This document shows, one piece after another, positions 15,385-39,292 of a DNA stretch of 64,000 nt. This DNA is from Patescibacteria group bacterium (GTDB lineage Bacteria > Patescibacteriota > Minisyncoccia > UBA6257 > UBA9933): positions 7,626 to 71,625 of the forward strand of contig JBBTPY010000006.1 of NCBI GenBank assembly GCA_038065955.1, written 5' to 3'. Below the pieces are notes generated by a model, which did not search any database, was not told where the DNA came from, and saw only the letters and a list, made by a program, of their open reading frames with translations. Each line of letters begins with the position of its first letter. Position 1 is the stretch's first letter. A program made the position numbers and the translations under genes.

Positions 15385-15455
15385 GGGCCTATAGTAAAAT
15401 GGTATTACATCTCCATGGCATGGAGAAGGTAGGAGTTCGATTCTCCTTAGGTCCA
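15385..15455 (+). tRNA. tRNA-Ala (anticodon GGC) with G3:U70; CCA not encoded
   Basis: Acceptor GGGCCTA/TAGGTCC with G3-U70 wobble (Ala identity element); D stem GTAA/TTAC; anticodon stem TCTCC/GGAGA with loop ATGGCAT; T-arm AGGAGTTCGATTCTCCT. Confidence 0.75.
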
Positions 15456-15650
15456 CTGTATGATACTTCGAGCCGGAGAATTGCTGATTAAGCTCGAAGA
15501 TTACTGACAATTTTGCGGTTCCAAATCCTTTATTTCGCGTGTACGGAATTCCCTCAGATTTATATTGATTTTCCATTTTCATATTTATTCTCATTTTTCG
15601 GCTACTTTTGCATACAATCGGATATAGCCGTTATATACGATTTTGGGCTG

Positions 15651-18113: not shown

Positions 18114-18117
18114 TCCT

Positions 18118-20961
18118 ATGACAAAGAAAATCCACAATAATTTACTCAATGAATTACCGCTTGCCGCGATACTTGCACCGGAAGTAAAGGCGTGGGCGGA
18201 TCAGGGCTGGCAAGGCGTAACGCAGACGACCTACGAACTTTTGGCGTATTGGTTTAATCGTGGGGAAGAAGACGGCGATGGATTTCATAAATGTCAGCGC
18301 CGTGCGGTGGAGACGATTATTTACTGCCATGAAGTTTTGGGTATTGAAACACTCAAACAGGCATTTGAAAGATTTGCTCCCGAAGCGTTGGCGGCAAGCG
18401 CGGCTCTTTCGGAAGAAGTGCAGAATTTACCTTTTGCGAAATATTGTCTCAAAATGGCAACCGGTACCGGCAAGACATGGGTTTTGGCCGCACTTTTAGT
18501 ATGGCAATATTTCAACGCCCTGAACGGCGAGCGGCCGGGAAAATATTCCTCACATTTTTTGCTCGTTGCGCCTGGACATGAGGTATTGAATCGTTTGCTG
18601 GATATGTTTTTAGGAAAGCATAACCCGAAAACCGGCAATCGCGACAAATCAAAATCGGATTTTGAGCGACCGCTTTTTATACCAGAGGGCGAGCGGTTTC
18701 GCAATCGTTTTAATCTGCAAGTTTTGGAACCGGCGGACATCCGACCAAATCTTACGCCGCCGGACGAGCCGTTTGTGTATATCACTAACTGGCAGCAGTT
18801 TCGTTTGAACGAATCCAGCAACTTATGGGATCAACTAACTGGCGCTGATGTGGAGGAACAGCCGCGCGGCGAAATCATTGCCGATTTTCTTTCCGAGTAT
18901 TCAGATTTAATTATTTTCAATGACGAGGCGCACCATGTCCATGGCGCTAAAACCGCTAAAGGCGAGGAGTTGGTGTGGCGGAAATTCTTAACCGCTCTGT
19001 ATAACCGAATGGCGGAAAAGCGCGGCGATGAGAAAGGCGTATTTTTACAAATTGATTTTTCCGCTACGCCATTTTATGGCAGCGCGGAGAAAAAAGAGTA
19101 CTTCCCCCATATCGTCTATGATTTTGATTTAGTGGAAGCGATGCGGGCGATGCTCGTGAAGCAGATATTTTTGGAAGAACGGCAGGGAATGATGGGCGAG
19201 AAAATGGATGACCTTGATGTGCGCGCCGAACGAGCCGAAGCCGACGACGAACACCGGCGCGGGCAAGTTATCGGTGTTTCCGTGAGCCAGAAACTGCTTT
19301 TAGACATCGGCAGAAAAAAGATGGAGCAGATCGCCGTGGAATTTCGCGAAAAAGGACTGGATAAAAAACCGGTGCTTTTCGTGCTTGCGGAAAATACCGA
19401 GGTGGCTGATTTGGTTGCCGAGCATTTGGCAAATTTGACCGACGAGCGTGGCAGAAACTATCGCAATCAAGTTCTTGTAATTCACTCTGATAAAAAAGGC
19501 GAAATGAGCGACAAGGATTGGGAAAAGTATCGCCAGCAGTTGGAAACGCTAGATGAGCCAGAGGAAATAAACCAGATTCGCGTCGTGGTAAGCGTCTTGA
19601 TGTTGCGCGAGGGTTTTGACACTCAAAATGTGGCGGTGGTAGTGGTTTTGCGGAGCGCGAAAGCTGATCTCCTTTTGGAACAGATTGTCGGGCGCGGCGT
19701 ACGACTGATGTTCCCGGAATACAAATACCCAGAACTTGCGGACTTGAAGCGAGAGGCGCGGGAAGATGTGATGCGAAAGCGCGCGCCGAAAAACTCTTTG
19801 GACTTTTTGTTTGTTGTTGAACACCCAAAATTTCGAGGTTTCTATGAAGAATTACAGAAACAGGGATATGCGATTGGTATTGGCGATTCGTCGAGCACGG
19901 AAACAACCGGCGATTTGATTTTGTCGGAAGCCACACCCGAAAGAATTAAAAAATACGATCTCTCTTGGCCGATACAGGTATATGAACAGTCGCCGAAGTT
20001 TGATTTTTCCGCCATAGGCATTTCGGGGTTACCGAAGTATTCCATTCCGTTTGAGATGCTCAAAAAACAACTTTCCCAAATCTCCATCACAGAAACACAC
20101 GCCGAGACGGGTGGAAAAATAAAAACATGGAAACTGGACAATCAGTATTTTGATTACGCCCATTTCTTGCGCCAAGCAACAATCGCGGTGGCTTCCGAGC
20201 GCGGCACGAACACACTCACTAGCAAGATGGCAGATATTACCGGAATTATTGACGAGTATGTAAGTAATTATTTATTCGGCGGCGAGATTGACTTTCAGAA
20301 GGCCGAAAATTATACGGTCCTCAATTACGCACCGCTTTTTGATTTTGTTGTCGGGAGCGTCAAGCGAGTATTGTTGGATGGCTTGGGTAAAATTCAATAC
20401 GAAGTGAAAGCGGGAAAAGTTGGCAGGTTGAGCGATATAAAAAAGATTTATGTGCGGCAATCGCTATCTGTGCCGGTGGAGCGGTGTATTTATCCGCTCG
20501 CCGGATATTCGCGGCGAGGTGAAGGATTTGAGAAAAAGTTTATGGAGGAAACTTTGGATAAATCCACCGAGGTGGAAGCGTTTGGAAAAATTCAACAGAG
20601 AAAACACCTGCTCAACATTTCCTATCGGGACAAAGACGGAATCAAGCGCGACTATTTCCCCGACTTCGTTATCAAGATAAAAGACAAAATGTATATCGTG
20701 GAAACGAAAGCCGAGGACGAAATACAGAAGGCGGAAGGCAACGAAAAGAATTTGATCGTTTTGAAGGCGCGCGCGGCCGTGAGTTGGTGCAAAACAGCAA
20801 GTCAAATATCGCTCCCGAACCAGCCGCAGGAATGGGAGTATTTTATGTTATCTGAAAAGACATTCAATGAAAACCGGCAATTGGGCTTTGATGCGCTGGC
20901 CGACTTGGGTAGATTGGATTTGGAGCGGCTTTTGACGAGTGAAGCGGGGAAGCTGTTTTGA
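18118..20961 (+). CDS. res: Type III restriction enzyme Res subunit (SF2 helicase plus PD-(D/E)xK nuclease)
   Basis: Walker A 'MATGTGKTWV'; DEAH box 'IIFNDEAHHV'; downstream helicase motifs; C-terminal 'DFVIKIKDKMYIVETKAEDE' nuclease core. Confidence 0.8.
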   Translation: MTKKIHNNLLNELPLAAILAPEVKAWADQGWQGVTQTTYELLAYWFNRGEEDGDGFHKCQRRAVETIIYCHEVLGIETLKQAFERFAPEALAASAALSEEVQNLPFAKYCLKMATGTGKTWVLAALLVWQYFNALNGERPGKYSSHFLLVAPGHEVLNRLLDMFLGKHNPKTGNRDKSKSDFERPLFIPEGERFRNRFNLQVLEPADIRPNLTPPDEPFVYITNWQQFRLNESSNLWDQLTGADVEEQPRGEIIADFLSEYSDLIIFNDEAHHVHGAKTAKGEELVWRKFLTALYNRMAEKRGDEKGVFLQIDFSATPFYGSAEKKEYFPHIVYDFDLVEAMRAMLVKQIFLEERQGMMGEKMDDLDVRAERAEADDEHRRGQVIGVSVSQKLLLDIGRKKMEQIAVEFREKGLDKKPVLFVLAENTEVADLVAEHLANLTDERGRNYRNQVLVIHSDKKGEMSDKDWEKYRQQLETLDEPEEINQIRVVVSVLMLREGFDTQNVAVVVVLRSAKADLLLEQIVGRGVRLMFPEYKYPELADLKREAREDVMRKRAPKNSLDFLFVVEHPKFRGFYEELQKQGYAIGIGDSSSTETTGDLILSEATPERIKKYDLSWPIQVYEQSPKFDFSAIGISGLPKYSIPFEMLKKQLSQISITETHAETGGKIKTWKLDNQYFDYAHFLRQATIAVASERGTNTLTSKMADITGIIDEYVSNYLFGGEIDFQKAENYTVLNYAPLFDFVVGSVKRVLLDGLGKIQYEVKAGKVGRLSDIKKIYVRQSLSVPVERCIYPLAGYSRRGEGFEKKFMEETLDKSTEVEAFGKIQQRKHLLNISYRDKDGIKRDYFPDFVIKIKDKMYIVETKAEDEIQKAEGNEKNLIVLKARAAVSWCKTASQISLPNQPQEWEYFMLSEKTFNENRQLGFDALADLGRLDLERLLTSEAGKLF

Positions 20962-25635: not shown

Positions 25636-26418
25636 ATGGCTACAAACCTATACAAAAAAATAAAGGAGTTGCGTGAGCAAAACAAATTTTCTCAAGAGTA
25701 TCTGGCGGAACAACTCAAGGTCTCCCGTCCTACTTATATGCAGGTTGAAAAGGGCGAGCGAGACATTACCGTACCGGAGGCAAGAAAGCTTGCTCTGGTT
25801 TTTGGCGTGAGTTTAGAAGATTTTCTCGGCGAAGAAGTTTCAGCGCTTCCCGATGTGGTTTTAAAGAAAGAAAAAGCCAAAGAGAAAGAAAGCGATATCC
25901 GCATTATTATGCCTCGAGCGGATGTAAAAAAGTTCAAAGAAGTGCTTCTCTATGTTTTAAGCAAGATTGGAGCAAAACCGAACATTGGAGAGACCGCCCT
26001 CTACAAACTTTTGTATTTTATTGACTTTGATTTCTATGAGAAGTTTGAAGAACAGCTTACCGGGGCGCGATACATAAAAAATCATTACGGCCCCACGCCG
26101 GTTGAATTCAAGAAGATCGTTGAAGGGATGGAGAAAAAAGGAGAGGTTGAGCGCGTTAAATCGAGTTACTTTCAGTACGACCAAAAAAAATATCTGCCGC
26201 GCAGAGAACCCGATCTAAAGAATCTCTCGGCGCAGGAAATTAAACACATTGACGAAGTTCTCGCCCGATTATCAGATAAGAACGCCAACGAGCTGTCCGC
26301 CTATTCGCATAGCGATGTGCCATGGAGAGTACACAAAGCTGGAGAGACGATCAGCTACGAAAGCGTATTTTACCGAGACGAGGATCACTCTGTAAGAAAT
26401 TACGACGATGAACTTTAG
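25636..26418 (+). CDS. HTH-XRE plus Panacea (DUF4065/SocA-like) domain antitoxin
   Basis: N-terminal XRE helix-turn-helix ('SQEYLAEQLKVSRPTYMQVEKGER'). C-terminal 'TALYKLLYFIDFDFYEKFEEQLTGARYIKNHYGPTP' matches the Panacea core. Confidence 0.6.
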   Translation: MATNLYKKIKELREQNKFSQEYLAEQLKVSRPTYMQVEKGERDITVPEARKLALVFGVSLEDFLGEEVSALPDVVLKKEKAKEKESDIRIIMPRADVKKFKEVLLYVLSKIGAKPNIGETALYKLLYFIDFDFYEKFEEQLTGARYIKNHYGPTPVEFKKIVEGMEKKGEVERVKSSYFQYDQKKYLPRREPDLKNLSAQEIKHIDEVLARLSDKNANELSAYSHSDVPWRVHKAGETISYESVFYRDEDHSVRNYDDEL

Positions 26419-26752
26419 TGAAACCAATGAATTTTCAAAAGATTTCAAGCGACTCTCAAAAAAATATAGATCCCTGCCGGATGATTTGCTTGAATTCAAA
26501 AAGATCATATCAGAAATTCCTCTCGGTAGTGGGAAGCACTTTGTAGTGCTTCACGAAAACGAGGAGGTGAAAATTCTAAAGGCGCGCCTATTCTGTAAAT
26601 ATCTCAGGGGCGCGTCTTTGCGTATTATCTACGCATATCGTGAGACTACGGCAACGATTGATTTCATCGAGATTTATTATAAGGGTGAGCAGGCAAACGA
26701 AACTAAGGGCCTGATTAATGACTTTCTGCGCGAGTTAAATAAAAATGGATAA
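26408..26752 (+). CDS. RelE/ParE-superfamily type II toxin
   Basis: Overlaps the antitoxin stop (ATGA). '...LRIIYAYRETTATIDFIEIYYKGEQ' resembles the RelE/HigB/ParE C-terminal region. Confidence 0.55.
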   Translation: MNFSETNEFSKDFKRLSKKYRSLPDDLLEFKKIISEIPLGSGKHFVVLHENEEVKILKARLFCKYLRGASLRIIYAYRETTATIDFIEIYYKGEQANETKGLINDFLRELNKNG

Positions 26753-27588: not shown

Positions 27589-29112
27589 ATGAAAACTATA
27601 AAATCTATTTTTATTTCGATCCTATTTATTCCTGTTTTGGCTTTTGCCCATGAGCCGGCGGCATTGCCAAATGCAGGGCTTACTCCCGAAAGCGCTTTTT
27701 ACTTTGTTGATAAACTCGGCGAAGCATTGCGCGAATTCTTCACTTTTAACCCGGAGGCAAAAGCCCATCTTCAGATTGATTTTGCCGCCGAGCGAATCGC
27801 TGAGATAAAAATTATCTTAGAGACCAAGGGCGTGAATGCCAAGGGGTTAGAGGTGGCTCAATCCCGGCTTCAGGCAAACATTGCCAAGGCCGCTGGTATT
27901 ATTGAAGGCGAAAAATCCAAAGGGAAAGACGTAAGCGAGCTCGCAAAAAGCATTAGCGATGATTTTGATGCAAACAAAGAAGCCCTCAAGCAAGCTTTCA
28001 AAGATCAAGAACGCGCTCTTGAGGCAAAAGAAGACGAGCTTAAAGCAAAAATCCGCGAGGCAAGACGGGCCGGCGATACCGCTCAAGTTGAGGCGTTGGT
28101 AAAAGAACTCGGTGAAATTAAGGCTCAAAAAGAACTCTTGGAGCTCAAAGAAGAAGAGCAGGAAGATGCCTTAGAACAAGAAGAAGAAAAGATTGAAAGG
28201 GAGATGGATAAAAAGGAAGACGCGGAAAAGGCCATAAAAGAAGTTGAAGAGGAAAAGCAGGAATTGTTAGGTATAGTGGTTATGGATGGGAGTGGAGGTG
28301 ACGACATGACAGGGATAGTGGTCATGGACGGGAGCGGAAGCGATGACCTGTCGCAAATTTTTACTAAATTTGACCGACTACTTGCCCAAGCGAAAGAACT
28401 CTTTGCCAAAGAGAATTATGTCGGGGCAAAGCAATTAGCCAAGCAGGCAGAAAAAATCCTTGACGAGGTAGAAGACGCCATTGAAGATTTAGAAGAAGCG
28501 AAAGAAGAGGAAGATGAGTTGAAAGAAGAACAAGAAGAACAAACGAAGGAGGGGGCTGAAAAAGAAGCCGAGCGTTTAGAAAATGGGCAAAGACAAAAAG
28601 AAGCCGAAAAACAGCAAGAAGAAGCCGAGGAGCAAAGTAACGAAGCAGGTGGGGCACGGATTGTAAATCCTACGGAAAATCCATCAACCAGTAGTAATCC
28701 GCCAACGGCAAAAGACACCGGTGACTATACATTTACGATCACGGGCCGTGTGACGGATAATACATACGACCCTTCGGGAATGACGGACGGTGTTCTAGCG
28801 CCCGCTGGCGTTGTCATTCGCGCCATTGGTCCTAAAACAGTTACGACACAAACACGAACTGACGGTTCCTATACTCTCTCTTTCACGAACACGCCGCTCG
28901 GCACTTATGATGTGTGCATAACTCCTCCTTCTGGATATACGACGAATCCACTCTCCATTTCGAATTCAGAGTCAGGATGCGATAATGTGGTTGTACGATT
29001 ACGCAATGATACAACCCTTGATTTCTTTTATGGTGGTGGGCGCGCATCCCACGCGACCATTTATTTCGACTTACGGCGTACGGGGTCAGCCGAAAAGCCC
29101 ATCAACTGGTAG
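27589..29112 (+). CDS. Secreted E/K-rich coiled-coil protein with internal tandem repeat and C-terminal beta-rich (carboxypeptidase-regulatory/Ig-like) domain
   Basis: Signal peptide 'MKTIKSIFISILFIPVLAFA'; long charged helical region; duplicated 'GIVVMDGSG(G/S)DD' module; Thr/Gly-rich C-terminal ~150 aa. Confidence 0.45.
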   Translation: MKTIKSIFISILFIPVLAFAHEPAALPNAGLTPESAFYFVDKLGEALREFFTFNPEAKAHLQIDFAAERIAEIKIILETKGVNAKGLEVAQSRLQANIAKAAGIIEGEKSKGKDVSELAKSISDDFDANKEALKQAFKDQERALEAKEDELKAKIREARRAGDTAQVEALVKELGEIKAQKELLELKEEEQEDALEQEEEKIEREMDKKEDAEKAIKEVEEEKQELLGIVVMDGSGGDDMTGIVVMDGSGSDDLSQIFTKFDRLLAQAKELFAKENYVGAKQLAKQAEKILDEVEDAIEDLEEAKEEEDELKEEQEEQTKEGAEKEAERLENGQRQKEAEKQQEEAEEQSNEAGGARIVNPTENPSTSSNPPTAKDTGDYTFTITGRVTDNTYDPSGMTDGVLAPAGVVIRAIGPKTVTTQTRTDGSYTLSFTNTPLGTYDVCITPPSGYTTNPLSISNSESGCDNVVVRLRNDTTLDFFYGGGRASHATIYFDLRRTGSAEKPINW

Positions 29113-29488
29113 TAACTCACTATTGATGGTCATATTACTTATGATCACGGACCACGCTTATGATGTCACGGCAATGACACTGAGCGGTAGTTTTTCTTAT
29201 TGTCATTGCGAGAAAATTTGGTAAATAATATAAATTCAAAAAGAATTTGCCGCCTCAGCCGGAGGCTGATCTGCCTCGGGCGGAAAAGAAAAACTTGTCA
29301 TGCCTGAGGCAGATCCGCCTCTGGCGGAAAATCGTTCTTTCCGCTCCGGTTCAAGGGAGCAATCCCCGCCGTTTTATAACGTGGCCCATGCCCCTGACTC
29401 GTTGAAGTCGGCACTACACGAGATACAGCTCGCAGAACACATCTTCGAAAGGAGGAAACAGGTGAACGAAAGCCGCTTCAGCAGTAAG

Positions 29489-30034
29489 ATGGTCTTCGCT
29501 CTGACTGGCATGAGTGAGTGCGGAAAAAGTACTGTTGGTAAGTATCTCGACTCCAAGGGCATCGCGCGTCTCAAGATTGTGAAGCTTTTCGAAAGAGTCC
29601 GCGACAAGTGGTCTTCCGATGAAGAACTCTACGCGTTCGTGAGACGGCAGGAGGAACGCGACCCCCATGCTTTATGGGACGCGTTCGTCGACGAGCTGGC
29701 TACGGAGATGGATCGCCTCAGCACTAATGCCGCCTCAATCGAAAGTTTGTACGGCGGCGGACTGGGTCCATACCTCAAACAAAAGCTCGATCGACACTTC
29801 TGTGTCGTATTCCTGGACATGCCCTTAGAGATTCGTCTTGTTCGCCAGATGCAACGTGAAGGCCTTTCTGATATGGATAGTGCCCGAAAGCATCTTCTGC
29901 CACGAGATAAAATCAAGGAAAAGTCGGGAATCCCGGCGCTCAAGGAAATCGCGGGCGAAGTGGTTGACAATTCTGGGACGCTCAAGGAGCTCTACCAGAA
30001 AATAGATCAACTGGTTCAGAGATATTTCCCGTAA
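29489..30034 (+). CDS. P-loop nucleotide/nucleoside kinase (dephospho-CoA kinase-like)
   Basis: 'ALTGMSECGKSTVGKYL' Walker A near the N-terminus; C-terminal 'VVDNSGTLKELYQKI' resembles CoaE-type ends. Start taken at the internal Met; ORF track extends to 29300 through a hairpin-rich region. Confidence 0.5.
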   Translation: MVFALTGMSECGKSTVGKYLDSKGIARLKIVKLFERVRDKWSSDEELYAFVRRQEERDPHALWDAFVDELATEMDRLSTNAASIESLYGGGLGPYLKQKLDRHFCVVFLDMPLEIRLVRQMQREGLSDMDSARKHLLPRDKIKEKSGIPALKEIAGEVVDNSGTLKELYQKIDQLVQRYFP

Positions 30035-31961: not shown

Positions 31962-32285
31962 ATGGAAACTAAAAATGTAAAATTCGTTGTTTTTGTTCCT
32001 CTCTCTCACGCTGATGCTGTGCGCCATGCTCTCGGCGAGGCCGGAGCGGGTAAAATCGGAAATTATGATTTCTGCTCGTTTTCTTCTCGTGGCACAGGTC
32101 GTTTTCGTGGAAATGAAAAAGCGAATCCTGTAATTGGTAAAGCGGGGAAATATGAAGCAGTCGAGGAAGAAAAAATTGAGGCGATTGTGCCGCGAGAAAT
32201 TTTGAAAGAGGTTATTGAAAAAGTAAAAAGCGTTCATCCATACGAGGAAGTCGCTTTTGATATTTATCCGTTGGAAACAATATGA
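31962..32285 (+). CDS. Small PII/CutA-like (ferredoxin-like fold) protein, function unknown
   Basis: 107 aa; 'GAGKIGNY', 'SRGTGRFRG' and C-terminal 'HPYEEVAFDIYPLE' resemble CutA/PII-like families. Weak assignment. Confidence 0.3.
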   Translation: METKNVKFVVFVPLSHADAVRHALGEAGAGKIGNYDFCSFSSRGTGRFRGNEKANPVIGKAGKYEAVEEEKIEAIVPREILKEVIEKVKSVHPYEEVAFDIYPLETI

Positions 32286-32911
32286 AAATTACAAAAAATA
32301 AAATTCAAGTACTATTAGTCCATGGTGGAATGACCTTCAAAAATGAGAAGGATTATTTACACTACTTAAAAACTAAAAAAGTAACGACAACGAAAAAAGT
32401 TTCTTGGACAGGAGGTTATTTAGAGAAAAGTTTAGGCAAAAGGTTTGAAATAATCTCGCCAAGAATGCCTTTGCAGGATTTTGCGAAGTACAGAGATTGG
32501 AAGATATTTTTTGAGAGATACTTATCACTTATCAAAAATAAATACATTTTGATTGGTTCGTCTTTAGGCGGAGTTTTCCTTGCAAAATATCTTTCCGAAA
32601 ATAAACTTCGCAAAAAGGCATTGTCGGTATATTTGGTTTGTCCACCTTTTGACAATACATTGCCAGGTGAAGATTTGGTCGGTGGCTTCACGCTCGGCAA
32701 TAATCTGTCGTTGATTGAGAAGAACTGCAAAAATCTCCATTTGTTATTTTCAAACGATGACGATGTTGTGCCCGCCGCTCATGCCGATAAATACAAGCGA
32801 AAATTGAAAAATGCCCATGTTGTGATTTACAAGAGCAAAGGCGGGCATTTCAACATCGCCAAATTTCCTGAAATAGTTAAGATGATTTTTGCAGATATTA
32901 AAAGAAACTAG
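32282..32911 (+). CDS. Alpha/beta-fold serine hydrolase (YdeN/RBBP9-like)
   Basis: 'VLLVHGG' N-terminal strand; nucleophile elbow 'IGSSLGG'; late 'GGHFN' His region. Confidence 0.5.
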   Translation: MKITKNKIQVLLVHGGMTFKNEKDYLHYLKTKKVTTTKKVSWTGGYLEKSLGKRFEIISPRMPLQDFAKYRDWKIFFERYLSLIKNKYILIGSSLGGVFLAKYLSENKLRKKALSVYLVCPPFDNTLPGEDLVGGFTLGNNLSLIEKNCKNLHLLFSNDDDVVPAAHADKYKRKLKNAHVVIYKSKGGHFNIAKFPEIVKMIFADIKRN

Positions 32912-33010
32912 CCGCCAATTTTTTCAAAAAAGAAAGCCGAAGCCCGTGCGGATTCCTCCCCAAACCCCTCCTCCGCGCGGGCGAGTCCGAATTCCGCACC
33001 CCGCCACCAT
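32909..33010. repeat. Partial copy (R orientation) of the GC-rich intergenic repeat family; begins at the stop codon of the upstream gene
   Basis: 'tagccgccaatttt...gcggattcctccccaaacccctcctccgcgcgggcg' aligns with 36676-36760. Confidence 0.6.
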
Positions 33011-33340
33011 TCCCCCAGAAAAATGAGGCGGGGTGCGGTCAGAGTTTCTTCTCGAAAAAAGTTCGAGCAAATGCTAAAATAACACCACATTAGACGATTT
33101 CTTTCGCCCTCGCCCCTCGCTTCGCTCGGGGCTCGGGCTTCGGCGGGCAGAAAATAAAGGTAATTCCACGGCTTTTTGAAGTCAACAAAAAGCCGTTGGT
33201 CAAAAATTCGGCGGTTCGAGCCGATTTTTTTGAGAAAATTTTTCATCTCTGAAAAATTATCCTCCAAAGCGAAATTTTTGGCTTGGTTGGCTTCAATTAT
33301 CCAGTTCCGGACGAGTTCGAGCCAATGATTGCCTTTTCGC

Positions 33341-34591
33341 TCAAAATCGCTTTTTTTCCTCAATATCTTTTTTCCCCGACATCAGATCGTTTTTCTTTGG
33401 CTGAAACTCCGGCAGTTCTAAATCGCCTTCAAGGTAAGCGTCCATCAGGCGATTTATTTTTGTCTTAATTTTTTCTAATTCTGTTTTAAGATTTTGAGCG
33501 AAAAGGTCAGATGAGTGGCGGGATTCTTTATTCTCATTTTCCAGTTTTGTCAAAAACTTTTCCCGCCACTCATCGGGCAAAGAAACTTTTTGACAAAGAT
33601 TTTTCACTTGTTCAGTTAAAACTTCTTCCCGCAAAAAGCGATTTTCAGTACACGAAATAGTTTTGCTCTTGTGGGTGCAACGATAATAAATAAATTTCAA
33701 ACCACTTTTCTTGATGTGTCGCTCGGCGGTTATGGCATATCCACATACCCCACAAGTAGCAAAACCTAAAAACTGAAAATTCTTTGGTCCTCGCTTTTTG
33801 CGGGGCTTCCCATTCTGAACAAGTGCATTTTGAATTTGGTCAAAAAGTTTCTTTGCAATCATTGGCTTATGCGAACCTTGATGCACCTCGCCACGATATT
33901 GAAAGTGTCCGTAGTAAAAAGGATTTTTCAAAATATGTTCAATACTGGCGAGGTGCAAAGGTTTACCTGTTTTGCCAACCAAGCCAAGAGAAAACATTTT
34001 GCGTTGAATAGCCGTGAGTGTGTATTGCCCCGAAGCAAAAGCCCCTAACGCTTCTTTTACTTTGCCAAAAGTTTTTCTATCCGGCTCAATCGTCCGCAAA
34101 CGAGGTTCGTTGAAATATCCTAAAGGGGCTTTTGCGGAAAGTTCACCACGGCGTATTTTTTGGCGAATACCACGCAAAATGTTTTCTCTTAAATTGTCGG
34201 TGTAATACTTTGCTTGTCCGAAGGCGACACTCAACATAAATTTTCCTTGCGGTGTCGCCTCGAACCAGAAAGTAGGGAATTTTAGCGCAACAATCTTTTG
34301 CGTATCCACCAAATAAATTACTCTGCCACCGTCTATGCTATTTCTCGCTAAACGGTCTGGATTCCACGCTAAAATTCCCTGTGCAGTGCCTTTTTCAATT
34401 TCGCCAAGCATTTCGTTGAAAACTACTCTACCCGGCTCTTTGGCGGTCTTGCTCTCGTAAAATTCTTTTTCAACGAAAAGATTATTTTGCTTGGCGAATT
34501 CCCGAAGCTCCGTCAATTGTGCCTCAATACTTAAAACTTGGCGTTCTTCGTCTTCACTTGATTTTCTACAATAGATAAAATATTTGATCAT
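33341..34591 (-). CDS. Large serine recombinase (resolvase/invertase catalytic domain, recombinase domain, zinc ribbon)
   Basis: N-terminal 'YCRKSSEDEERQVLSIEAQ' contains the catalytic Ser. C-terminal 'CGVCGYAITAERHIKKSGLKFIYYRCTHK' is the zinc ribbon of large serine recombinases. Confidence 0.85.
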   Translation of the reverse strand: MIKYFIYCRKSSEDEERQVLSIEAQLTELREFAKQNNLFVEKEFYESKTAKEPGRVVFNEMLGEIEKGTAQGILAWNPDRLARNSIDGGRVIYLVDTQKIVALKFPTFWFEATPQGKFMLSVAFGQAKYYTDNLRENILRGIRQKIRRGELSAKAPLGYFNEPRLRTIEPDRKTFGKVKEALGAFASGQYTLTAIQRKMFSLGLVGKTGKPLHLASIEHILKNPFYYGHFQYRGEVHQGSHKPMIAKKLFDQIQNALVQNGKPRKKRGPKNFQFLGFATCGVCGYAITAERHIKKSGLKFIYYRCTHKSKTISCTENRFLREEVLTEQVKNLCQKVSLPDEWREKFLTKLENENKESRHSSDLFAQNLKTELEKIKTKINRLMDAYLEGDLELPEFQPKKNDLMSGKKDIEEKKRF

Positions 34592-34799
34592 AGCTTCGGG
34601 AATTAAATTGATAAAGGCATTGCACTTACACCGACAATTTCTAAAAATCTCTCCTCATCGGCTCTTGCGCCTTTGGCGCAATCCAAACTTTGTTTGGGAA
34701 CCGCCGACTTTCGGCGGGAATTCTTTTGGCGGAATTCAAAACCCCCTGGAATTTCTTGGCGGAAACCAATGCCGAGGGGCGAAGCCCCGAGGCAACTTC

Positions 34800-35020
34800 T
34801 TCGGCAAATCAAATTTGGTGGTGTTTGTTTAAAAAAGTCAGAACCCATTTTGCAGAAAATCCCAACGAATGAAACGGAAACAATGCGGACTCGGCAGGGC
34901 AAACTATTTTTCTGGGGTTTTGGATTTGCCCTGCCTCGGCTGATTTCCCGCCCGCAGGAGGGGTCTGGGGAGGAATGCGGGCGGGTTTCGGACTGGGGGT
35001 TTTCGGAAATTCGGCGGCTA
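34800..35020. repeat. Left copy (L orientation) of a ~200-bp inverted repeat flanking the XRE-NDT-HD cassette
   Basis: Reverse complement of 34837-35020 aligns nearly base-for-base with 36676-36870. Contains a perfect 10-bp hairpin stem cccgcccgca/tgcgggcggg. Confidence 0.8.
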
Positions 35021-35101
35021 TAAAATAATTGAATAATTCTCTCATATTTGTTATTATAATACTGTCAGTTAAAACAAGCAACAGTATTATGTTATCAATA
35101 T

Positions 35102-35305
35102 ATGGAAACTAATTTATTAGGACAGAAAATAAAGAAGCTACGGACAAAACTTGGTCTTTCTCAAGACGATTTTGCTCGCAAGGCGGATGTTCCCTACACA
35201 ACGCTTACAAAGGTCGAAACAGGCGTTATAAAAAAACCTTCGGTTTTTATGGTGAGCAAAATCGCTAAAGCGCTTGATGTTAATATTGAAGAATTAATAA
35301 AATAA
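35102..35305 (+). CDS. XRE-family helix-turn-helix transcriptional regulator
   Basis: 'LGLSQDDFARKADVPYTTLTKVETG' HTH_3 pattern; 67 aa. Confidence 0.6.
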   Translation: METNLLGQKIKKLRTKLGLSQDDFARKADVPYTTLTKVETGVIKKPSVFMVSKIAKALDVNIEELIK

Positions 35306-35310
35306 ATATT

Positions 35311-35697
35311 ATGAAAACAGTAGTACTTTGCGGCAGTCGCCGTTTCAAACCGGAAATGAGAGAATTTGGCAAAAAGCTAAAAGAGCTTGGTGTCGTTGTG
35401 TTTGAACCTTATTTACATTCCGGTCAAGACGAATGGGCGAAACTGTCGGACGACTATAAAAAATTTGTTGCTCTCGGACTAACCCATGATCATTTTTACA
35501 AAATACAAATAGCTGATGTGGTTTTTATTTTTAATAAAGACGGTTACACTGGGAATAGTACGACTTTGGAAATCGGTTATGCGGTAGCGACAGGAAAACC
35601 AATTTATGCGTTAACAAGTGACGAAGAATTATGCCGCCATGTTTTATTTAGAGAGATAATTTCTTCACCCAAAGAACTTGTTAAAAAATTGAAATAA
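35311..35697 (+). CDS. Nucleoside 2-deoxyribosyltransferase-like (Rcl/DNPH1-type Rossmann) protein
   Basis: 'VVLCGSRRF' N-terminal strand and 'GYTGNSTTLEIGYAVATGKPIYAL' match the NDT-like 'G.S.GT..E.G.A.A.GKP' signature. Confidence 0.45.
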   Translation: MKTVVLCGSRRFKPEMREFGKKLKELGVVVFEPYLHSGQDEWAKLSDDYKKFVALGLTHDHFYKIQIADVVFIFNKDGYTGNSTTLEIGYAVATGKPIYALTSDEELCRHVLFREIISSPKELVKKLK

Positions 35698-35700
35698 ATT

Positions 35701-36678
35701 ATGAAATACACAGATAGAGTATATGGAAATTTTGAAATTACAGAACCAGTAATTTTGGAATTGATAAATTCCTCAACTTTTCAAAGATTAAAGGAAATAG
35801 ATCAAGCTGGATATTTCGAACCACATTTCCCAGGCACTGCACATTCGCGTTTTGAACATTCAATCGGTGACTATTTACTTTTGAAAATGTATGAGGCACC
35901 AATTGAAGAACAAATTGCTGGTCTTATTCATGATGTTTCTCACTCGGCATTTTCTCATTGTATAGATTATGTCTTAGATGCTGGCTCTGAAAAAGAACAT
36001 AATCATCAAGATAATGTTTTTGATGATTATGTTAGAAAATCAGAAATACCAGAAATTCTTAAAAAATATAATCTCGATTTGGATTATATCCTTGACGATA
36101 AAAATTTTCCTCTTAAAGAAAACGATTTGCCAGATTTATGTTCAGATAGAATAGATTATTCATTAAGAACAGCTACTGTTTTTAAGGAAATAGAAAACGG
36201 AAAATTTTTTATTTATAATCTCACAGCAAAAGACGGAAGGTGGATTTTTAAAGATTTTGAAAGTGCAAAAAAATATGCAGACTTATTTTTGAAACTCAAC
36301 ACTAACTATTATGCGGGATTACCTTCCGCTGTTATGTTCCGAACGGTTGGAGATTATTTGCGATATGCACTTTCAAAAGAATATATTTCTGAAACCGATT
36401 TATACACAACTGATAAAATTGTTCTTTCAAAAATAGAATTTCATATCACCGACGACTCAAAATTGAAATTGCTTTTTGAAAGAATGAATAATAAAATCGG
36501 TTTCAGAAATGACCCAGTTAATTATGACGGAAAAGTATTTTGTAAATCACGAGTGGTTGATCCTCTTTGTTGGCATAATGGGGAAATAAAAAGAGTTTCA
36601 GAAATAGAGCCGAGTTGGTCTGATATAATTACGCGGGAATCAAAACCAAAAGAATATTTTTTAAAATTTGATAGATAG
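35701..36678 (+). CDS. HD-superfamily metal-dependent phosphohydrolase
   Basis: 'HSRFEHSIGDYLL' (His) and 'LIHDVSHSAFSH' (HD) motifs. Confidence 0.7.
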   Translation: MKYTDRVYGNFEITEPVILELINSSTFQRLKEIDQAGYFEPHFPGTAHSRFEHSIGDYLLLKMYEAPIEEQIAGLIHDVSHSAFSHCIDYVLDAGSEKEHNHQDNVFDDYVRKSEIPEILKKYNLDLDYILDDKNFPLKENDLPDLCSDRIDYSLRTATVFKEIENGKFFIYNLTAKDGRWIFKDFESAKKYADLFLKLNTNYYAGLPSAVMFRTVGDYLRYALSKEYISETDLYTTDKIVLSKIEFHITDDSKLKLLFERMNNKIGFRNDPVNYDGKVFCKSRVVDPLCWHNGEIKRVSEIEPSWSDIITRESKPKEYFLKFDR

Positions 36679-36995
36679 CCGCCGAATTTCCGAAAACCCC
36701 CAGTCCGAAACCCGCCCGCATTCCTCCCCAGACCCCTCCTGCGGGCGGGAAATCAGCCGAGGCAGGGCGAATCCATATCCCCAGTCAAATGTTTCGCCCT
36801 GCCGAGTCCGCATTAGTTTTCAGGGTTCTCCGCAAAATGGGTTCTAACTTTTTCCAACAAACACCAAAATCAAGCCCCTTGATTTTGGGATATTCTAAAC
36901 TTTGCGCGAAATCATTTTGAGGGAAACTAGCCCGCCTCCGCTTCGCTCCGGCGGAACGCTCGGGCATTTCGGCGAAAAATTTTTGCGACTGACAA
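36676..36995. repeat. Right copy (R orientation) of the inverted repeat; starts at the HD-gene stop codon and extends ~320 bp
   Basis: 'tagccgccgaatttccgaaaacccccagtccgaaacccgcccgcattcctccccagacccctcctgcgggcggg...' is the reverse complement of 34837-35020. Its distal part (36900-36995) is mirrored at 39042-39130. Confidence 0.8.
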
Positions 36996-38180: not shown

Positions 38181-38672
38181 ATGTCCTTACACCGAAAAAA
38201 GTACCAAAATGCTGTTTTGTACTTATGCCGGAAGCTAAAAGGCGAGGTACGCGGCAAGAAAAAATTAGCGAAATTGCTTTATTTCGCGGATTTTGATTTG
38301 TACGAAAAAAGTCAGAAATCAATAACTGGCGATGTTTACTGTGCGCTCCCAATGGGGCCGGTTCCGGCAGCTTTGGAAGAAATCACAGCTGAAATGACAA
38401 AAAAGAAAATGCTTGGCGTTGAGCACATCGAAGAACGAGAGGGATACAATCCTACTGAAGTATATAAGTGTCTCATCGAACCCGATCTTTCTGTTTTTGA
38501 TGACGAAGAAAAGAAAATGCTCGATCGGATTGTTGTCAAATATGGTCATCTCAATGGCAAACAATTAGAAGAATTATCTCACGCCGAAGCACCATACATC
38601 GGTACGGAGTTACGAAAAGAAATTCCATACGAACTGGCTTTTTATCGTGGTACAGATTTTAGTGAAATATGA
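38181..38672 (+). CDS. Panacea (DUF4065) domain antitoxin-like protein
   Basis: 'LAKLLYFADFDLYEKSQKSITGDVYCALPMGPVPAAL' matches the Panacea core and is paralogous to the 25636 C-terminal domain. Confidence 0.55.
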   Translation: MSLHRKKYQNAVLYLCRKLKGEVRGKKKLAKLLYFADFDLYEKSQKSITGDVYCALPMGPVPAALEEITAEMTKKKMLGVEHIEEREGYNPTEVYKCLIEPDLSVFDDEEKKMLDRIVVKYGHLNGKQLEELSHAEAPYIGTELRKEIPYELAFYRGTDFSEI

Positions 38673-39040
38673 TTCAGTTTCTGTACCACGACGGCATTCA
38701 GAAAGAAATCGCCGCCCTTGATGAGCGGCGATTTCGTACTATACGCAGTGGTCTGTCTGCATTTGAGAGACTGTGTGAGGTGCAATTTAATCCGACAAAT
38801 CCGCGACAAATCATTGCGCCGGCTAAAATACACCGCATTACGCAGAATGATATTTGGACACTCTGGAAAACTGAACTCGTTGTACCTAATTCGGGTTTAC
38901 GCCCAAATCAATGGCCGCGAATGTGGTTTGTGGTGAAGGGCGCAATTATTGCTTTTTTGTGCATATCCTCTCATGTTGATAATTACAACGATGAGGATAT
39001 GAATCGTTTAGCTTTGTCGCGGGTGTCGGATTTCTTCTGA
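38669..39040 (+). CDS. Putative toxin partner of the Panacea protein (family unrecognised)
   Basis: Start overlaps the Panacea stop (ATGA coupling); 123 aa; C-terminal hydrophobic stretch. Confidence 0.3.
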   Translation: MIQFLYHDGIQKEIAALDERRFRTIRSGLSAFERLCEVQFNPTNPRQIIAPAKIHRITQNDIWTLWKTELVVPNSGLRPNQWPRMWFVVKGAIIAFLCISSHVDNYNDEDMNRLALSRVSDFF

Positions 39041-39041
39041 A

Positions 39042-39130
39042 ATGTCGCAAAAATTTTTCACCGAAATGCCCGAGCGTTCTGCTAGAGCGAAGTGGAGGCG
39101 GTTTAGTTCCTTTTTTGAATTTTTTAGGAG
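39042..39130. repeat. Partial L-orientation copy of the intergenic repeat family
   Basis: 'gtcgcaaaaatttttcaccgaaatgcccgagcgttctgctagagcgaagtggaggcgg' is ~90% identical to the reverse complement of 36921-36990. Confidence 0.7.
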
Positions 39131-39292
39131 GCGCGCAAAAGAAAATTGTAAGGGAAAATTTCTGCGAGGTTGTCGCCTGAGCGAAGCGGGAGCGTACGAT
39201 TTAGTCTCGCTTCACCACGCGCTCCGCGCGCGGCACATCAGTCGGGGTTCTACTGGAAGTAAGTCCGAATTTTTTGGTATAATGATTACCAT

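What the first reader, a model, noticed from the sequence alone, without database searches (positions are those of the whole stretch)
34800..36995. ~200-bp inverted repeats bracket an XRE / deoxyribosyltransferase-like / HD-hydrolase cassette next to a serine recombinase
Sequence 34837-35020 is the near-exact reverse complement of 36676-36870, and similarity continues with divergence for tens of bp further. The 1.66-kb segment between the arms holds three co-directional genes. A large serine recombinase (33341-34591, minus strand) ends about 200 bp from the left arm. This geometry of long inverted repeats plus an adjacent serine recombinase is what invertible segments or inverted-repeat-bounded mobile cassettes look like. 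Each arm also contains a perfect 10-bp GC hairpin (cccgcccgca...tgcgggcggg), so the arms may also act as bidirectional terminators.
Basis: seen in the sequence. Interest (0 to 1): 0.75.

Follow-up and report, generated by a model that had tools for sequence, protein, structure and literature searches.

The report
Relic serine-recombinase element with inverted att arms
The two ~200-bp inverted repeats are real, and they are the attachment-site arms of a decayed copy of an apparently undescribed, widespread family of small tRNA-targeting mobile elements in CPR (Patescibacteria) bacteria that carry an inverted spare copy of their own attachment site and mostly ferry defence genes.

Summary
Window 34819-35021 and 36675-36866 are inverted copies (203 nt, 87%; core 140 nt, 94%), each with two GC-rich palindromes.

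The repeats are neither terminator/REP repeats nor a simple invertible cassette. The hairpin-1 loop 20-mer occurs in more than 118 genome stretches and more than 120 metagenome stretches, almost all CPR bacteria. It sits in one architecture: tRNA 3' end | P' | large serine recombinase | inverted P'-O-P | XRE/C-protein + variable cargo (mostly restriction-modification) | P. This makes two abutting inverted-repeat pairs around a short shared core. That is an integrated element holding a second, inverted copy of its attP.

The recombinase ORF crosses the crossover point. A conserved ~16-aa tail is encoded on the P arm, and integration replaces it with tRNA-antisense sequence.

The window copy is a relic. 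Its recombinase is frameshifted and its arms have diverged. It has no tRNA junction. It is fused to remnants of neighbouring elements.

Inversion is not seen in this population and is rare in the family. The role of the duplicated site is inferred, not shown.

The parts
34819..35021 (-). Left arm = P arm of the internal, inverted attP copy. Read on the + strand from outside inwards it holds: core TGGTG (34819-23); a 17-codon recombinase tail mini-exon WCLFKKVRTHFAENPNE* (34819-34872); hairpin 2 (34894-34935); hairpin 1 (34947-34985); inner end at 35021.
36675..36866 (+). Right arm = P arm of attR. It holds hairpin 1 (36711-36749) and hairpin 2 (36761-36803). The tail mini-exon is on the - strand (WCLLEKVRTHFAENPEN*, about 36815-36866). 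The core CACCA is at 36862-36866. The arm starts at the HD gene's stop codon.
35102..35305 (+). First cargo gene: XRE/HTH_3 regulator resembling restriction-modification control (C) proteins. Its own promoter/operator palindrome is at 35048-35098.
35311..35697 (+). Cargo gene: nucleoside 2-deoxyribosyltransferase-fold protein (128 aa).
35701..36678 (+). Cargo gene: HD protein whose N-terminal half matches SAMHD1-type dNTP triphosphohydrolases.
34698..34818 (-). Inner P' arm ('U'): the 5' leader of the recombinase gene and an inverted copy of the gene's last ~40 codons. It is 99% identical to the outer arm next to tRNA-Ala in relative L031. It carries three TTGGCGSAAWYCAA direct repeats.
33341..34591 (-). 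Large serine recombinase, main ORF (416 aa). Catalytic, recombinase and zinc-ribbon domains are intact.
32908..33363 (-). Out-of-frame continuation of the recombinase. A 2-nt deletion near 33350 separates it from the main ORF. Residues 3-79 match the C-terminal domain of intact homologs. It then reads through the diverged P' arm, a degenerate tail (WCYFSICSNFF) and the third repeat.
33093..33215 (+). Diverged outer P' arm (about 60-65% identical to 34698-34818, in inverted orientation).
32905..33092 (+). Third copy of the P arm (two-hairpin core 32905-33050). It begins at the stop codon of the hydrolase gene 32282-32911 and keeps all 21 stem pairs despite different stem sequences. Together with 33093-33215 it forms a full P-O-P' junction in place of a tRNA attL.
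39190..39291 (+). 'V': outer end of a fourth P arm of another subfamily (L100/L071-like). It has a tail remnant SLYQKIRTYFQ* on the - strand and directly abuts the uppS start codon, so it is probably the right edge of the whole island.
36925..36989 (+). 'B' repeat, inverted partner at 39044-39108 (65 nt, 89%). The pair brackets a second cassette (XRE2, two membrane proteins, SocA/Panacea + 123-aa partner). This is probably the remnant of an older, recombinase-less element.
39044..39108 (-). Partner of the B repeat.

Best explanation
The inverted repeats are the two 'P arms' of the attachment region of a small integrative element run by a large serine recombinase (LSR). The family is widespread in CPR/Patescibacteria.

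Shown by comparison with intact relatives. The integrated element reads: tRNA 3' end (B) - core O - P' arm - recombinase - [inverted P' - O - P] - XRE + cargo - P arm - O - flank (B'). The middle block is a complete inverted copy of what joining the two ends would give, that is attP. As a result the recombinase is bracketed by one inverted-repeat pair (IR2 = P', 98-199 nt) and the cargo by another (IR1 = P, 190-405 nt where both arms are fully visible). From the crossover inwards, each P arm contains about 16 codons that complete the recombinase ORF with a conserved tail, a stop codon, and then two Watson-Crick-only palindromes with conserved C-rich (CCCCAG) loops.

Inferred:
- The recombinase integrates a circular form (two unique segments separated by two inverted attP copies) into the 3' end of a tRNA gene.
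- Integration swaps the enzyme's conserved tail for tRNA-antisense sequence, probably changing its activity.
- The palindromes lie between the convergent recombinase and cargo operons in the excised form. They probably act as a two-way terminator or insulator and/or as accessory protein-binding sites.
- The internal attP copy may serve as an operator between the divergent recombinase and XRE genes, and as a spare source of the native tail.

The window copy is an immobilised, rearranged relic. Its recombinase is frameshifted, its arms are only 87% alike, it has no tRNA junction, and it is fused to remnants of at least two other elements in an island that ends at uppS.
For: 1. Family and linkage. 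The hairpin-1 loop 20-mer hits more than 118 genome stretches and more than 120 metagenome stretches. A covariance model finds 134 full two-hairpin copies in 111 genome loci but only 3 in the 64-kb window. The layout recombinase<-repeat(-) XRE-> cargo repeat(+) recurs.

2. Double inverted-repeat architecture. IR1 pairs occur in at least 19 loci (median about 99% identity). IR2 pairs flank the recombinase in 13 loci. The inner arms overlap by 5-24 nt.

3. Junction sequences. In L056 and L096 the three junctions read B-CCGCC-P', P-CCGCC-P' (inverted, central) and P-CCGCC-B'.

4. tRNA targets. A tRNA gene (Ser, Ala, Leu, Val, Gln) abuts the recombinase-side end in 13 of 14 genome loci. It does so again in 7 metagenome loci, adding Glu and Asp.

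5. Genuine LSR. The protein has the Resolvase + Recombinase + Zn-ribbon domains. Its best PDB matches are the SPbeta and A118 integrases. Y-x-R-K-S, PDRLARN and four Cys are invariant.

6. Tail. In the integrated form the ORF ends in unconserved tails of about 0-39 aa. Simulating the P-O-P' junction gives an in-frame conserved tail [CYS][LF]L.K[VI]R[TN][YF]F..NP..* in 10 of 11 loci. The motif plus a stop codon is present in 65 of 117 arms and at exactly 3 places in the window, all of them arm ends.

7. Stems. 96.8% of cells are paired and 20 of 21 pairs show double changes. There is no G.T excess (13 G.T vs 23 A.C vs 26 other mismatches).

8. Mobility and modularity. L056 and L096 share 92.6% identical backbones with IR2 arms identical between the two genomes, unrelated cargo and different tRNA-Ser genes. 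A Magasanikbacteria contig is 97.9% identical to the window's left arm.

9. Relic status of the window copy. There is a 2-nt deletion in the recombinase. A diverged P-O-P' junction replaces attL. The same layout is present in all strains.
Against: - No excised circle or empty attB site was found: no circular contigs, no empty site via uppS, and nothing in viral, phage or plasmid collections. Mobility as one unit rests on junction anatomy and cross-genome comparison only.
- The purpose of the inverted attP copy is unexplained by canonical LSR biology, since LSRs do not normally recombine attP with attP or attL.
- Tail conservation could partly reflect a DNA half-site next to the crossover. Codon-position entropy is not decisive (0.72 / 0.53 / 0.76).
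- The hairpins lack a clear U-tract, and their strongly conserved loops are more than a terminator needs.
- Arm identities of 100% and the rare isomers come from short-read assemblies, which can collapse or mis-orient repeats.
- L105 shows no tRNA at its end.
- The accretion history proposed for the window is a reconstruction.
Confidence: 0.75

Rival explanations
1. Invertible segment: the adjacent serine recombinase flips the 1.65-kb XRE/NDT/HD segment between the two arms as a phase-variation switch.
For: The geometry fits: inverted arms with the recombinase next door. The arms are kept 99-100% identical in intact relatives, which would fit ongoing recombination. One family member (L136) has the XRE-led operon in the opposite orientation between identical arms. 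The recombinase segment is inverted in L248 relative to L152 and in L184 relative to L213, with breakpoints inside the IR2 arm.
Against: All long contigs from at least four independent assemblies of this population have one orientation. XRE is recombinase-proximal in about 21 of 22 family cases, and the recombinase orientation is canonical in about 44 of 46. The cassette carries its own promoter, and the arm/cargo junctions would not change on flipping, so inversion has no obvious read-out. The window recombinase is frameshifted. The enzyme is a ~500-aa integrase-type LSR and not a Hin/Gin-type invertase. The crossover core lies at the OUTER ends of the arms and is shared with a tRNA junction. 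The rare isomers may be short-read mis-orientations.
Confidence: 0.1
2. Independent inverted-repeat-bounded mobile cassette (MITE-like or non-autonomous transposon): the arms are terminal inverted repeats, and the cassette hops separately from the recombinase gene.
For: Recombinase-less arm-cargo-arm units exist (L124, next to tRNA genes). Nearly identical backbones carry unrelated cargo. Furuta et al. 2010 (PMC2853133) described restriction-modification genes flanked by inverted repeats in transposon-like units.
Against: There is no target-site duplication at the arm ends (sequence). The outer arm ends coincide with the att core and continue into the P' arm or the tRNA junction. There is no transposase. 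Only three copies exist in 64 kb, all in one island. L124 is explained more simply by deletion of the recombinase segment between its own inverted arms, which would leave the tRNA joined directly to a P arm, the layout seen in L124.
Confidence: 0.08
3. Plain structured intergenic repeat (bidirectional terminator or REP-like element) that happens to flank this cassette.
For: There are two strong GC hairpins per arm (fold -56 kcal/mol, z about -2.2 to -2.7). The right arm and the third copy each start at a stop codon. Stems that are Watson-Crick-only fit a hairpin needed on both strands.
Against: The repeat is not dispersed: 3 copies in 64 kb, all around the recombinase. Across more than 200 loci it is tied to the recombinase, XRE and tRNA architecture. 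The arm extends beyond the hairpins into a conserved coding tail and the att core. The loops are conserved across CPR classes. There is no Rfam family and no clear U-tract. Terminator function may still be one role of the hairpins within the element.
Confidence: 0.05
4. Assembly artefact (inverted-repeat chimera).
For: Short contigs of the cassette end inside the arms (L006-L009), and one is chimeric (L005). Several family contigs have k-mer-length inverted ends.
Against: The same structure, with diverged (87%) and therefore unambiguous arms, occurs in a 695-kb contig and in three other independent long contigs, and in hundreds of unrelated assemblies.
Confidence: 0.01

Closest known systems
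Integrative elements and prophages using large serine recombinases (phiC31, Bxb1, A118, SPbeta SprA; SCCmec CcrAB; XisF fdxN element)
   Same: The enzyme has the same class and domain set. The recombinase gene sits next to the attachment site. attL and attR are hybrid sites that share only a short core with attP and attB. The element carries accessory cargo.
   Different: It targets the 3' ends of tRNA genes, which from my own knowledge is typical of tyrosine integrases and unusual for LSRs. It carries a second, complete, inverted attP inside the element, so that both unique segments are bracketed by long near-identical inverted repeats. The attP arms are 0.3-0.6 kb rather than about 50 bp. 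The crossover lies inside the recombinase ORF, so integration replaces a conserved C-terminal tail. The protein scores far below the NCBIfam cutoffs for XisF and CcrA/B/C.
Yeast 2-micron plasmid (FLP/FRT)
   Same: The inferred circular form has the same geometry: two unique segments separated by a pair of long inverted repeats that contain the recombinase's own site, with the recombinase encoded in one segment.
   Different: FLP is a tyrosine recombinase and the two isomers are equally abundant. Here one arrangement dominates, the element integrates into a chromosome, and no replication genes are present.
Serine invertase systems (Hin/hix, Gin/gix, Cin, Pin)
   Same: A serine recombinase gene lies next to a segment bounded by inverted repeats.
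   Different: Invertases are ~190-aa enzymes acting on 26-34-bp sites with an enhancer. Both orientations coexist in a population, and inversion changes what is expressed. None of this holds here.
Tn3/gamma-delta res-resolvase arrangement
   Same: A multi-palindrome recombinase site lies between divergently transcribed genes, directly upstream of the serine recombinase gene. This suggests autoregulation by site binding (inference).
   Different: Those are small resolvases whose sites are in direct repeat for resolution and are not attachment sites. Here binding of the recombinase to the hairpins is untested.
Mobile restriction-modification units (Furuta, Abe & Kobayashi 2010, PMC2853133)
   Same: Defence (R-M) genes with a C-protein-like regulator are flanked by inverted repeats. 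That paper also reports an R-M + integrase unit inserted in a tRNA gene. The cargo of this family is mostly R-M.
   Different: Their inverted-repeat units have 26-65-bp repeats with 8-bp target duplications and no linked recombinase. Their tRNA-inserted unit has direct repeats. Neither shows the double inverted-repeat / internal attP layout.
SSV-type archaeal integrases (attP inside the int gene)
   Same: Integration alters the integrase gene because the crossover lies within its ORF (from my own knowledge of the family).
   Different: Those are tyrosine recombinases whose gene is split in two. Here only a ~16-aa tail is exchanged, and a spare copy is kept inside the element.

Membership tests
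Large-serine-recombinase integrative element | Recombinase with an N-terminal resolvase catalytic domain (Ser nucleophile), a recombinase domain and a zinc-ribbon domain | tested here: met
   Pfam PF00239 + PF07508 + PF13408. PDB matches to the SPbeta and A118 integrases. Invariant Y7, R9, K10, S11, PDRLARN and four Cys across 11 family members. The window copy lacks the last ~90 aa because of a frameshift.
Large-serine-recombinase integrative element | Element ends are hybrid sites (attL = B-O-P', attR = P-O-B') that share a short core with attP | tested here: met
   Shown for relatives L056, L096 and L105. In the window the right end (CACCA, 36862-36866) and the central junction fit, but the recombinase-side end is a P-O-P' junction and not an attL.
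Large-serine-recombinase integrative element | Site-specific insertion into a defined host target | tested here: met
   A tRNA 3' end abuts the recombinase-side arm in 13 of 14 genome loci and in 7 metagenome loci. This is not met in the window itself (no tRNA within 17 kb).
Large-serine-recombinase integrative element | Excision to a circular attP form and restoration of attB | tested here: inconclusive
   No circular contig and no empty site. Contigs with a recombinase->tail->arm junction exist (L141, L160, L190, L202), but they could be tandem copies or repeat mis-joins.
Large-serine-recombinase integrative element | Recombination directionality factor | not tested
   No candidate was examined. 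Only an XRE/C-protein is constant in the cargo.
Serine invertase / invertible-segment system (Hin, Gin, Cin, Pin) | Small (~190 aa) invertase with a C-terminal HTH | tested here: not met
   The enzyme is a ~500-aa LSR with a zinc ribbon.
Serine invertase / invertible-segment system (Hin, Gin, Cin, Pin) | Both orientations coexist in a population | tested here: not met
   Only one orientation is seen in all long contigs of this population. The metagenome junction scan was uninformative. In the family, about 1 of 22 cargo segments and about 2 of 46 recombinase segments are in the other orientation.
Serine invertase / invertible-segment system (Hin, Gin, Cin, Pin) | Inversion changes a promoter-gene or coding junction | tested here: not met
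   The cassette has its own promoter and operator inside (35029-35098). The arm/cargo junctions would be unchanged by recombination within the arms (sequence).
TIR transposon / MITE | Target-site duplication flanking the terminal inverted repeats, and a dispersed multi-copy distribution | tested here: not met
   No direct repeat flanks 34819 and 36866. There are 3 copies in 64 kb, all in one island. The arm ends are att cores.
REP/BIME-like repeat or intrinsic terminator | Hairpin repeats scattered at many gene ends; for terminators, a stem followed by a U-tract | tested here: not met
   Not scattered. No U-tract directly after either stem, and the consensus scan does not call them. A terminator role inside the element remains possible because of where they lie.
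Structured RNA family | Helices tolerate G.U on the transcribed strand; match to a curated model | tested here: not met
   G.T 13 vs A.C 23 vs other 26 among 1544 cells, despite 368 double changes. No Rfam match at the gathering threshold or at E<=1 in the arms.
Integron cassette / attC | Tyrosine IntI integrase; attC sites all in one orientation after each cassette | tested here: not met
   The recombinase is a serine enzyme and the repeats are inverted.

The most novel reading that the evidence does not exclude
The family is a self-regulating 'flip-flop' integrative element. Insertion into a tRNA gene strips the recombinase of a conserved C-terminal tail and thereby locks the element in place. 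The internal inverted attP copy keeps a spare tail exon plus terminator, so that inversion of the recombinase segment (or tandem or excised configurations) restores the native enzyme and re-arms mobility. This would be a DNA-geometry switch for integrase activity with no known equivalent among serine integrases, operating in CPR bacteria as a main vehicle for restriction-modification and other defence genes.
Probability: 0.2. Interest if true: 0.85.

Novelty: new variant of a known kind. Interest (0 to 1): 0.62.

Why it matters
CPR/Patescibacteria have tiny genomes and few recognised mobile elements. This work points to a widespread, compact (about 3.5-9 kb) element family that appears to move restriction-modification and other defence modules between distant CPR lineages.

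Its design is unusual for serine integrases in three ways:
- it targets tRNA genes;
- it has very long attachment arms with conserved palindromes;
- it has an inverted spare attP, and the crossover lies inside the integrase ORF, so integration exchanges a conserved tail.

If the tail swap controls activity, it would be a new way of making a serine integrase directional. That is relevant to the use of these enzymes as genome-engineering tools.

Practically, these repeats break CPR assemblies (many contigs end in them), and they mark defence islands. The window copy itself is a fossil and of limited interest on its own.

Tried and rejected
1. The arm's antisense strand encodes a long recombinase extension ending at the inner boundary. 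Rejected: only 14 of 137 copies have a TAGCCGCC-type inner end, and no frame is preferentially open. Only the first ~16 codons next to the crossover are conserved.

2. Structured RNA. No Rfam hit, and the stems show no G.U tolerance.

3. Phage or plasmid origin. No hit in IMG/VR or phages, and only a weak HD-gene hit in plasmids.

4. Broken recombinase in strains L002/L003. These are homopolymer indel errors of those assemblies. The real lesion is the 2-nt deletion shared by all strains.

5. Programmed -1 frameshift at the A-run. The frame needed is +1/-2, and homologs simply have two more bases.

6. L005 as evidence for a second genomic location. Its tail is high-GC foreign sequence, so it is a chimera.

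7. Metagenome scan for either orientation of the window cassette junction. Zero hits, uninformative.

8. Empty site or variant island via the uppS protein. All strains are identical in layout.

9. Circular contigs. None found.

10. L088/L111 as non-tRNA junctions. They are canonical (tRNA-Gln), with a hairpin-1-like sequence in the P' arm.

11. Non-CPR hosts. Hits in Alistipes/Tidjanibacter contigs (L015, L050, L051, L106) have no full element and are chance 20-mers. Other non-CPR labels are on short or binned contigs and were not verified.

12. PADLOC and NCBIfam gave no named system for the NDT-like and HD proteins.
Full report
**1. The observation**

The inverted repeat is real. The repeat finder reports arms 34882-35021 / 36675-36814 (140 nt, 94% complementary) and 34819-34862 / 36823-36866 (44 nt, 86%). 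blastn joins them into one 203-nt match at 86.7%.

Each arm holds two strong palindromes:
- hairpin 1: CCCGCCCGCA - 19 nt - TGCGGGCGGG;
- hairpin 2: GGCAGGGCRAA - about 20 nt - TTYGCCCTGCC.

Both loops contain CCCCAG. The hairpin-1 loop is a perfect homopyrimidine mirror repeat (TCCTCCCC-AGA-CCCCTCCT).

Between the arms lie three genes:
- an HTH_3/XRE gene;
- a Nuc_deoxyrib_tr-fold gene;
- an HD gene, whose N-terminal half matches SAMHD1-type dNTPases.

The neighbour at 33341-34591(-) is a large serine recombinase. Its start codon, not its end, faces the left arm.

**2. The repeat is a family, but not a dispersed one**

A third copy lies at 32905-33050(+), right after the stop codon of a hydrolase gene. 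Its stems differ in sequence yet keep 21 of 21 pairs.

A covariance model built from the three copies finds nothing else in the 64-kb window. Rfam has no match.

Almost all are from many classes of CPR/Patescibacteria. The model recovers 134 full copies in 111 of those loci. A second scan of metagenome contigs gave 120 more stretches. Viral, phage and plasmid collections gave nothing relevant.

On 90 aligned copies, 96.8% of stem cells pair and 20 of 21 pairs show changes on both sides. G.T mismatches (13) are no more frequent than A.C (23) or other mismatches (26). The stems are therefore Watson-Crick palindromes. They act at the DNA level, or as hairpins needed on both strands. They are not a one-strand RNA structure.

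**3. The architecture in intact relatives**

Maps of all loci show one recurring order: recombinase <- repeat(-) | XRE -> cargo | repeat(+).

Intact loci have two abutting inverted-repeat pairs:
- IR1 (190-405 nt where both arms are fully visible, median about 99% identity, at least 19 loci) contains the two hairpins and brackets XRE + cargo.
- IR2 (98-199 nt, 13 loci, spacer about 1.4 kb in all but one) brackets the recombinase.

The inner arms of the two pairs overlap by 5-24 nt.

In L056 and L096 the same core CCGCC is at the left end, inverted at the centre, and at the right end. The three junctions read B-O-P', P-O-P' (inverted) and P-O-B'.

The recombinase-side end abuts or overlaps the 3' end of a tRNA gene:
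- in 13 of 14 genome loci (Ser, Ala, Leu, Val, Gln);
- in 7 metagenome loci (also Glu and Asp).

So the whole unit is an integrated element, and its centre is a complete inverted copy of attP. Equivalently, the free form would be a circle in which two inverted attP copies separate a recombinase segment from a cargo segment.

The enzyme is a genuine large serine recombinase. It is not a member of the named XisF or Ccr subfamilies.

**4. A tail exon on the arm**

In every intact locus the recombinase ORF runs through the outer P' arm and across the core.
- In the integrated state it ends in unconserved tails of about 0-39 aa, read off the tRNA antisense strand.
- When the P-O-P' junction is simulated, the ORF continues in frame into a conserved 15-17-aa tail and a stop codon. 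Examples are CLLDKVRNYFEQNPND*, CFLDEVRTFFEENPEN* and SLYQKVRTYFQQNPD*. This holds in 10 of 11 loci.

The tail motif plus stop is found at the outer end of 65 of 117 arms. In the window it occurs exactly three times, each at an arm end: 34834(+), 36834(-) and 39256(-).

The window's two arms differ there mostly by synonymous changes: WCLFKKVRTHFAENPNE* versus WCLLEKVRTHFAENPEN*. Codon-position entropy is not decisive, so a contribution from DNA half-site conservation cannot be excluded.

After the stop codon come hairpin 2 and hairpin 1, and then the last cargo gene arriving from the other side. In the excised form the palindromes therefore sit between two convergent transcription units. That is the position of a two-way terminator, and it would also explain Watson-Crick-only stems. 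Their conserved loops suggest an additional protein-binding role. Neither role is tested.

**5. Cargo**

In 23 cassettes (78 ORFs), 14 begin with an XRE/HTH_3 protein that matches restriction-modification control proteins. The rest is mostly type II, IIG and I methyltransferases and nucleases. There are occasional DGR parts, HNH nucleases and transporters.

The window's XRE also matches control proteins. Its NDT-like and SAMHD1-like proteins match no named defence system. A nucleotide-targeting defence role is a guess.

L056 and L096 have backbones that are 92.6% identical, with IR2 arms identical between the two genomes. Their cargo is unrelated and they sit in different tRNA-Ser genes. A Magasanikbacteria contig is 97.9% identical to the window's left arm. 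Both facts point to recent mobility and modular cargo exchange.

**6. The window copy is a relic**

- The recombinase has a 2-nt deletion relative to L031 and L100. This splits it into a 416-aa ORF and an out-of-frame C-terminal part. All strains share this.
- The arms are among the most diverged in the family: 87%, against a median of about 99%.
- The inner P' arm (34698-34818) is intact and 99% identical to the outer arm next to tRNA-Ala(GGC) in the closest relative, L031. On the recombinase's 3' side, however, the window has no tRNA. It has a diverged P' arm (33093-33215) joined to the third repeat, which makes a second full P-O-P' junction.
- That third repeat closes another gene set. The P-II-like gene at 31962-32285 in that set is cassette cargo in L052 and L101.
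- To the right of the right arm lies a second cassette (XRE2, membrane proteins, SocA/Panacea + partner). It is bracketed by its own 65-nt inverted repeats. After it comes the outer end of a fourth P arm with a tail remnant, directly before uppS.

The simplest reading is serial accretion of several elements at one tRNA site followed by decay. A similar remnant junction is seen in L066. A recombinase-less derivative with the tRNA joined directly to a P arm is seen in L124. tRNA-Ala(GGC) at 15385-15456(+) points into this region, and the genes between it and the cassettes are defence-type, including a type III restriction-modification pair and an XRE-Panacea fusion. That this tRNA is the original target is conjecture.

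**7. Does it invert?**

In this population all long contigs from at least four assemblies have the same orientation. The short contigs simply end inside the arms. A metagenome scan designed to catch either orientation found nothing and is uninformative.

Across the family:
- XRE is at the recombinase-proximal end in 13 of 13 genome loci and in 8 of 9 metagenome loci. The exception is L136.
- The recombinase segment is canonical in 27 of 27 genome loci and in 17 of 19 metagenome loci.
- There are two inverted cases, L248 versus L152 and L184 versus L213. Their breakpoints lie in the IR2 arm.
- Four contigs show a recombinase -> native tail -> arm junction: L141, L160, L190 and L202.

These contigs show that alternative configurations exist. 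They come from short-read assemblies, however, in which repeats of this length can be mis-joined. Several contigs have k-mer-length inverted ends. Inversion is thus at most occasional. It would not change any junction, and it cannot be catalysed by the window's broken enzyme.

**8. Comparison with known systems and novelty**

The element works like a serine-integrase integrative element, and its recombinase passes the membership tests for that class. It differs in four respects:
- it targets tRNA genes;
- its attachment arms are 0.3-0.6 kb long and carry conserved palindromes;
- it has an internal inverted attP, which gives a 2-micron-plasmid-like geometry;
- its crossover lies inside the integrase ORF and exchanges a conserved tail.

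Full-text searches found no description of this layout. The nearest reports are:
- restriction-modification units with short inverted repeats, and an R-M + integrase unit in a tRNA gene (PMC2853133);
- the association of small serine recombinases with defence genes (PMC13552941).

I rate the family a new variant of a known kind, and the window locus a decayed member of it.

**9. Shown versus inferred**

Shown:
- the repeats, the hairpins and their covariation;
- the family distribution;
- the double inverted-repeat layout;
- the tRNA junctions and shared cores;
- the in-frame conserved tail;
- the cargo content;
- the lesions in the window copy.

Inferred:
- the circular intermediate;
- the functional effect of the tail swap;
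- a terminator or binding role for the hairpins;
- the purpose of the internal attP;
- the accretion history.

Noticed in passing
window 16221-20961: A type III restriction-modification pair (N6_N4 methylase of 630 aa; Res helicase of 947 aa with a TnsA-like endonuclease domain at its C-terminus). It is followed by three ORFs with no Pfam match (239, 1013 and 105 aa). All lie just downstream of a tRNA cluster, so the region looks like a defence island.
   Followed up: partly
window 25636-26752 and 38181-39040: Two SocA/Panacea antitoxin-type modules. One is an XRE-Panacea fusion (260 aa) with a 114-aa partner. The other is a 163-aa Panacea protein with an overlapping 123-aa partner that has no family. 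The second pair recurs at 89%/83% identity in L067, where it is followed by a two-hairpin arm.
   Followed up: partly
window 34673-34769: Three direct repeats TTGGCGSAAWYCAA spaced 53 and 30 nt apart, in the recombinase leader (inner P' arm). They could be protein-binding sites. The only permissive Rfam hit (anti-hemB, E=0.03, well below threshold) also falls here and looks like chance.
   Followed up: no
window 34947-34985 and 36711-36749: The 19-nt loop of hairpin 1 is a perfect homopyrimidine mirror repeat (TCCTCCCC-AGA-CCCCTCCT). It could form an intramolecular triplex or i-motif, or a G-quadruplex on the other strand. It also contains two CCUCC anti-Shine-Dalgarno-like motifs.
   Followed up: no
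window 36864-36888: A perfect 11-bp hairpin (CCAAAATCAAG-CCC-CTTGATTTTGG) starts within the att core at the right arm's outer end. It may be the terminator that originally followed the target tRNA gene.
   Followed up: no
window 36751-36754 and 34802-34815, compared with L001-L004: Strain-level variants sit inside and next to the arms (for example AATC vs CGGG in the right arm, where the window and L003 match the left arm's version). This hints at occasional gene conversion between the arms.
   Followed up: no
L005 1607-2069: A Logan contig joins the cassette, 10 nt into the right arm, to unrelated high-GC sequence. This is most likely an assembly chimera.
   Followed up: partly
L018 1-193: A contig binned as Magasanikbacteria starts with 193 nt that are 97.9% identical to the window's left arm. 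This is either very recent transfer between CPR classes or mis-binning.
   Followed up: no
L141 187-1254: An ORF with an IS110-like C-terminus sits directly upstream of an N-terminally truncated family recombinase, which suggests an insertion sequence disrupted that element.
   Followed up: no
L188 1-8289: A contig whose two ends are exact inverted copies of at least 400 nt, with the two-hairpin repeats pointing inwards (+ at 713, - at 7558) and no recombinase detected. It is either a head-to-head arrangement or a palindromic misassembly.
   Followed up: no
cargo of the 23 surveyed cassettes (alignment A5; loci not individually identified): Two cargo ORFs match reverse transcriptase (RVT_1) and two match bAvd, so diversity-generating retroelement parts appear to travel as cargo of this element family.
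   Followed up: no
window 29001-30000: A local GC peak (0.51, against about 0.40 for the window) covers a 244-aa AAA_18/kinase-like ORF (29300-30034) at the left edge of the gene set that ends in the third repeat.
   Followed up: no
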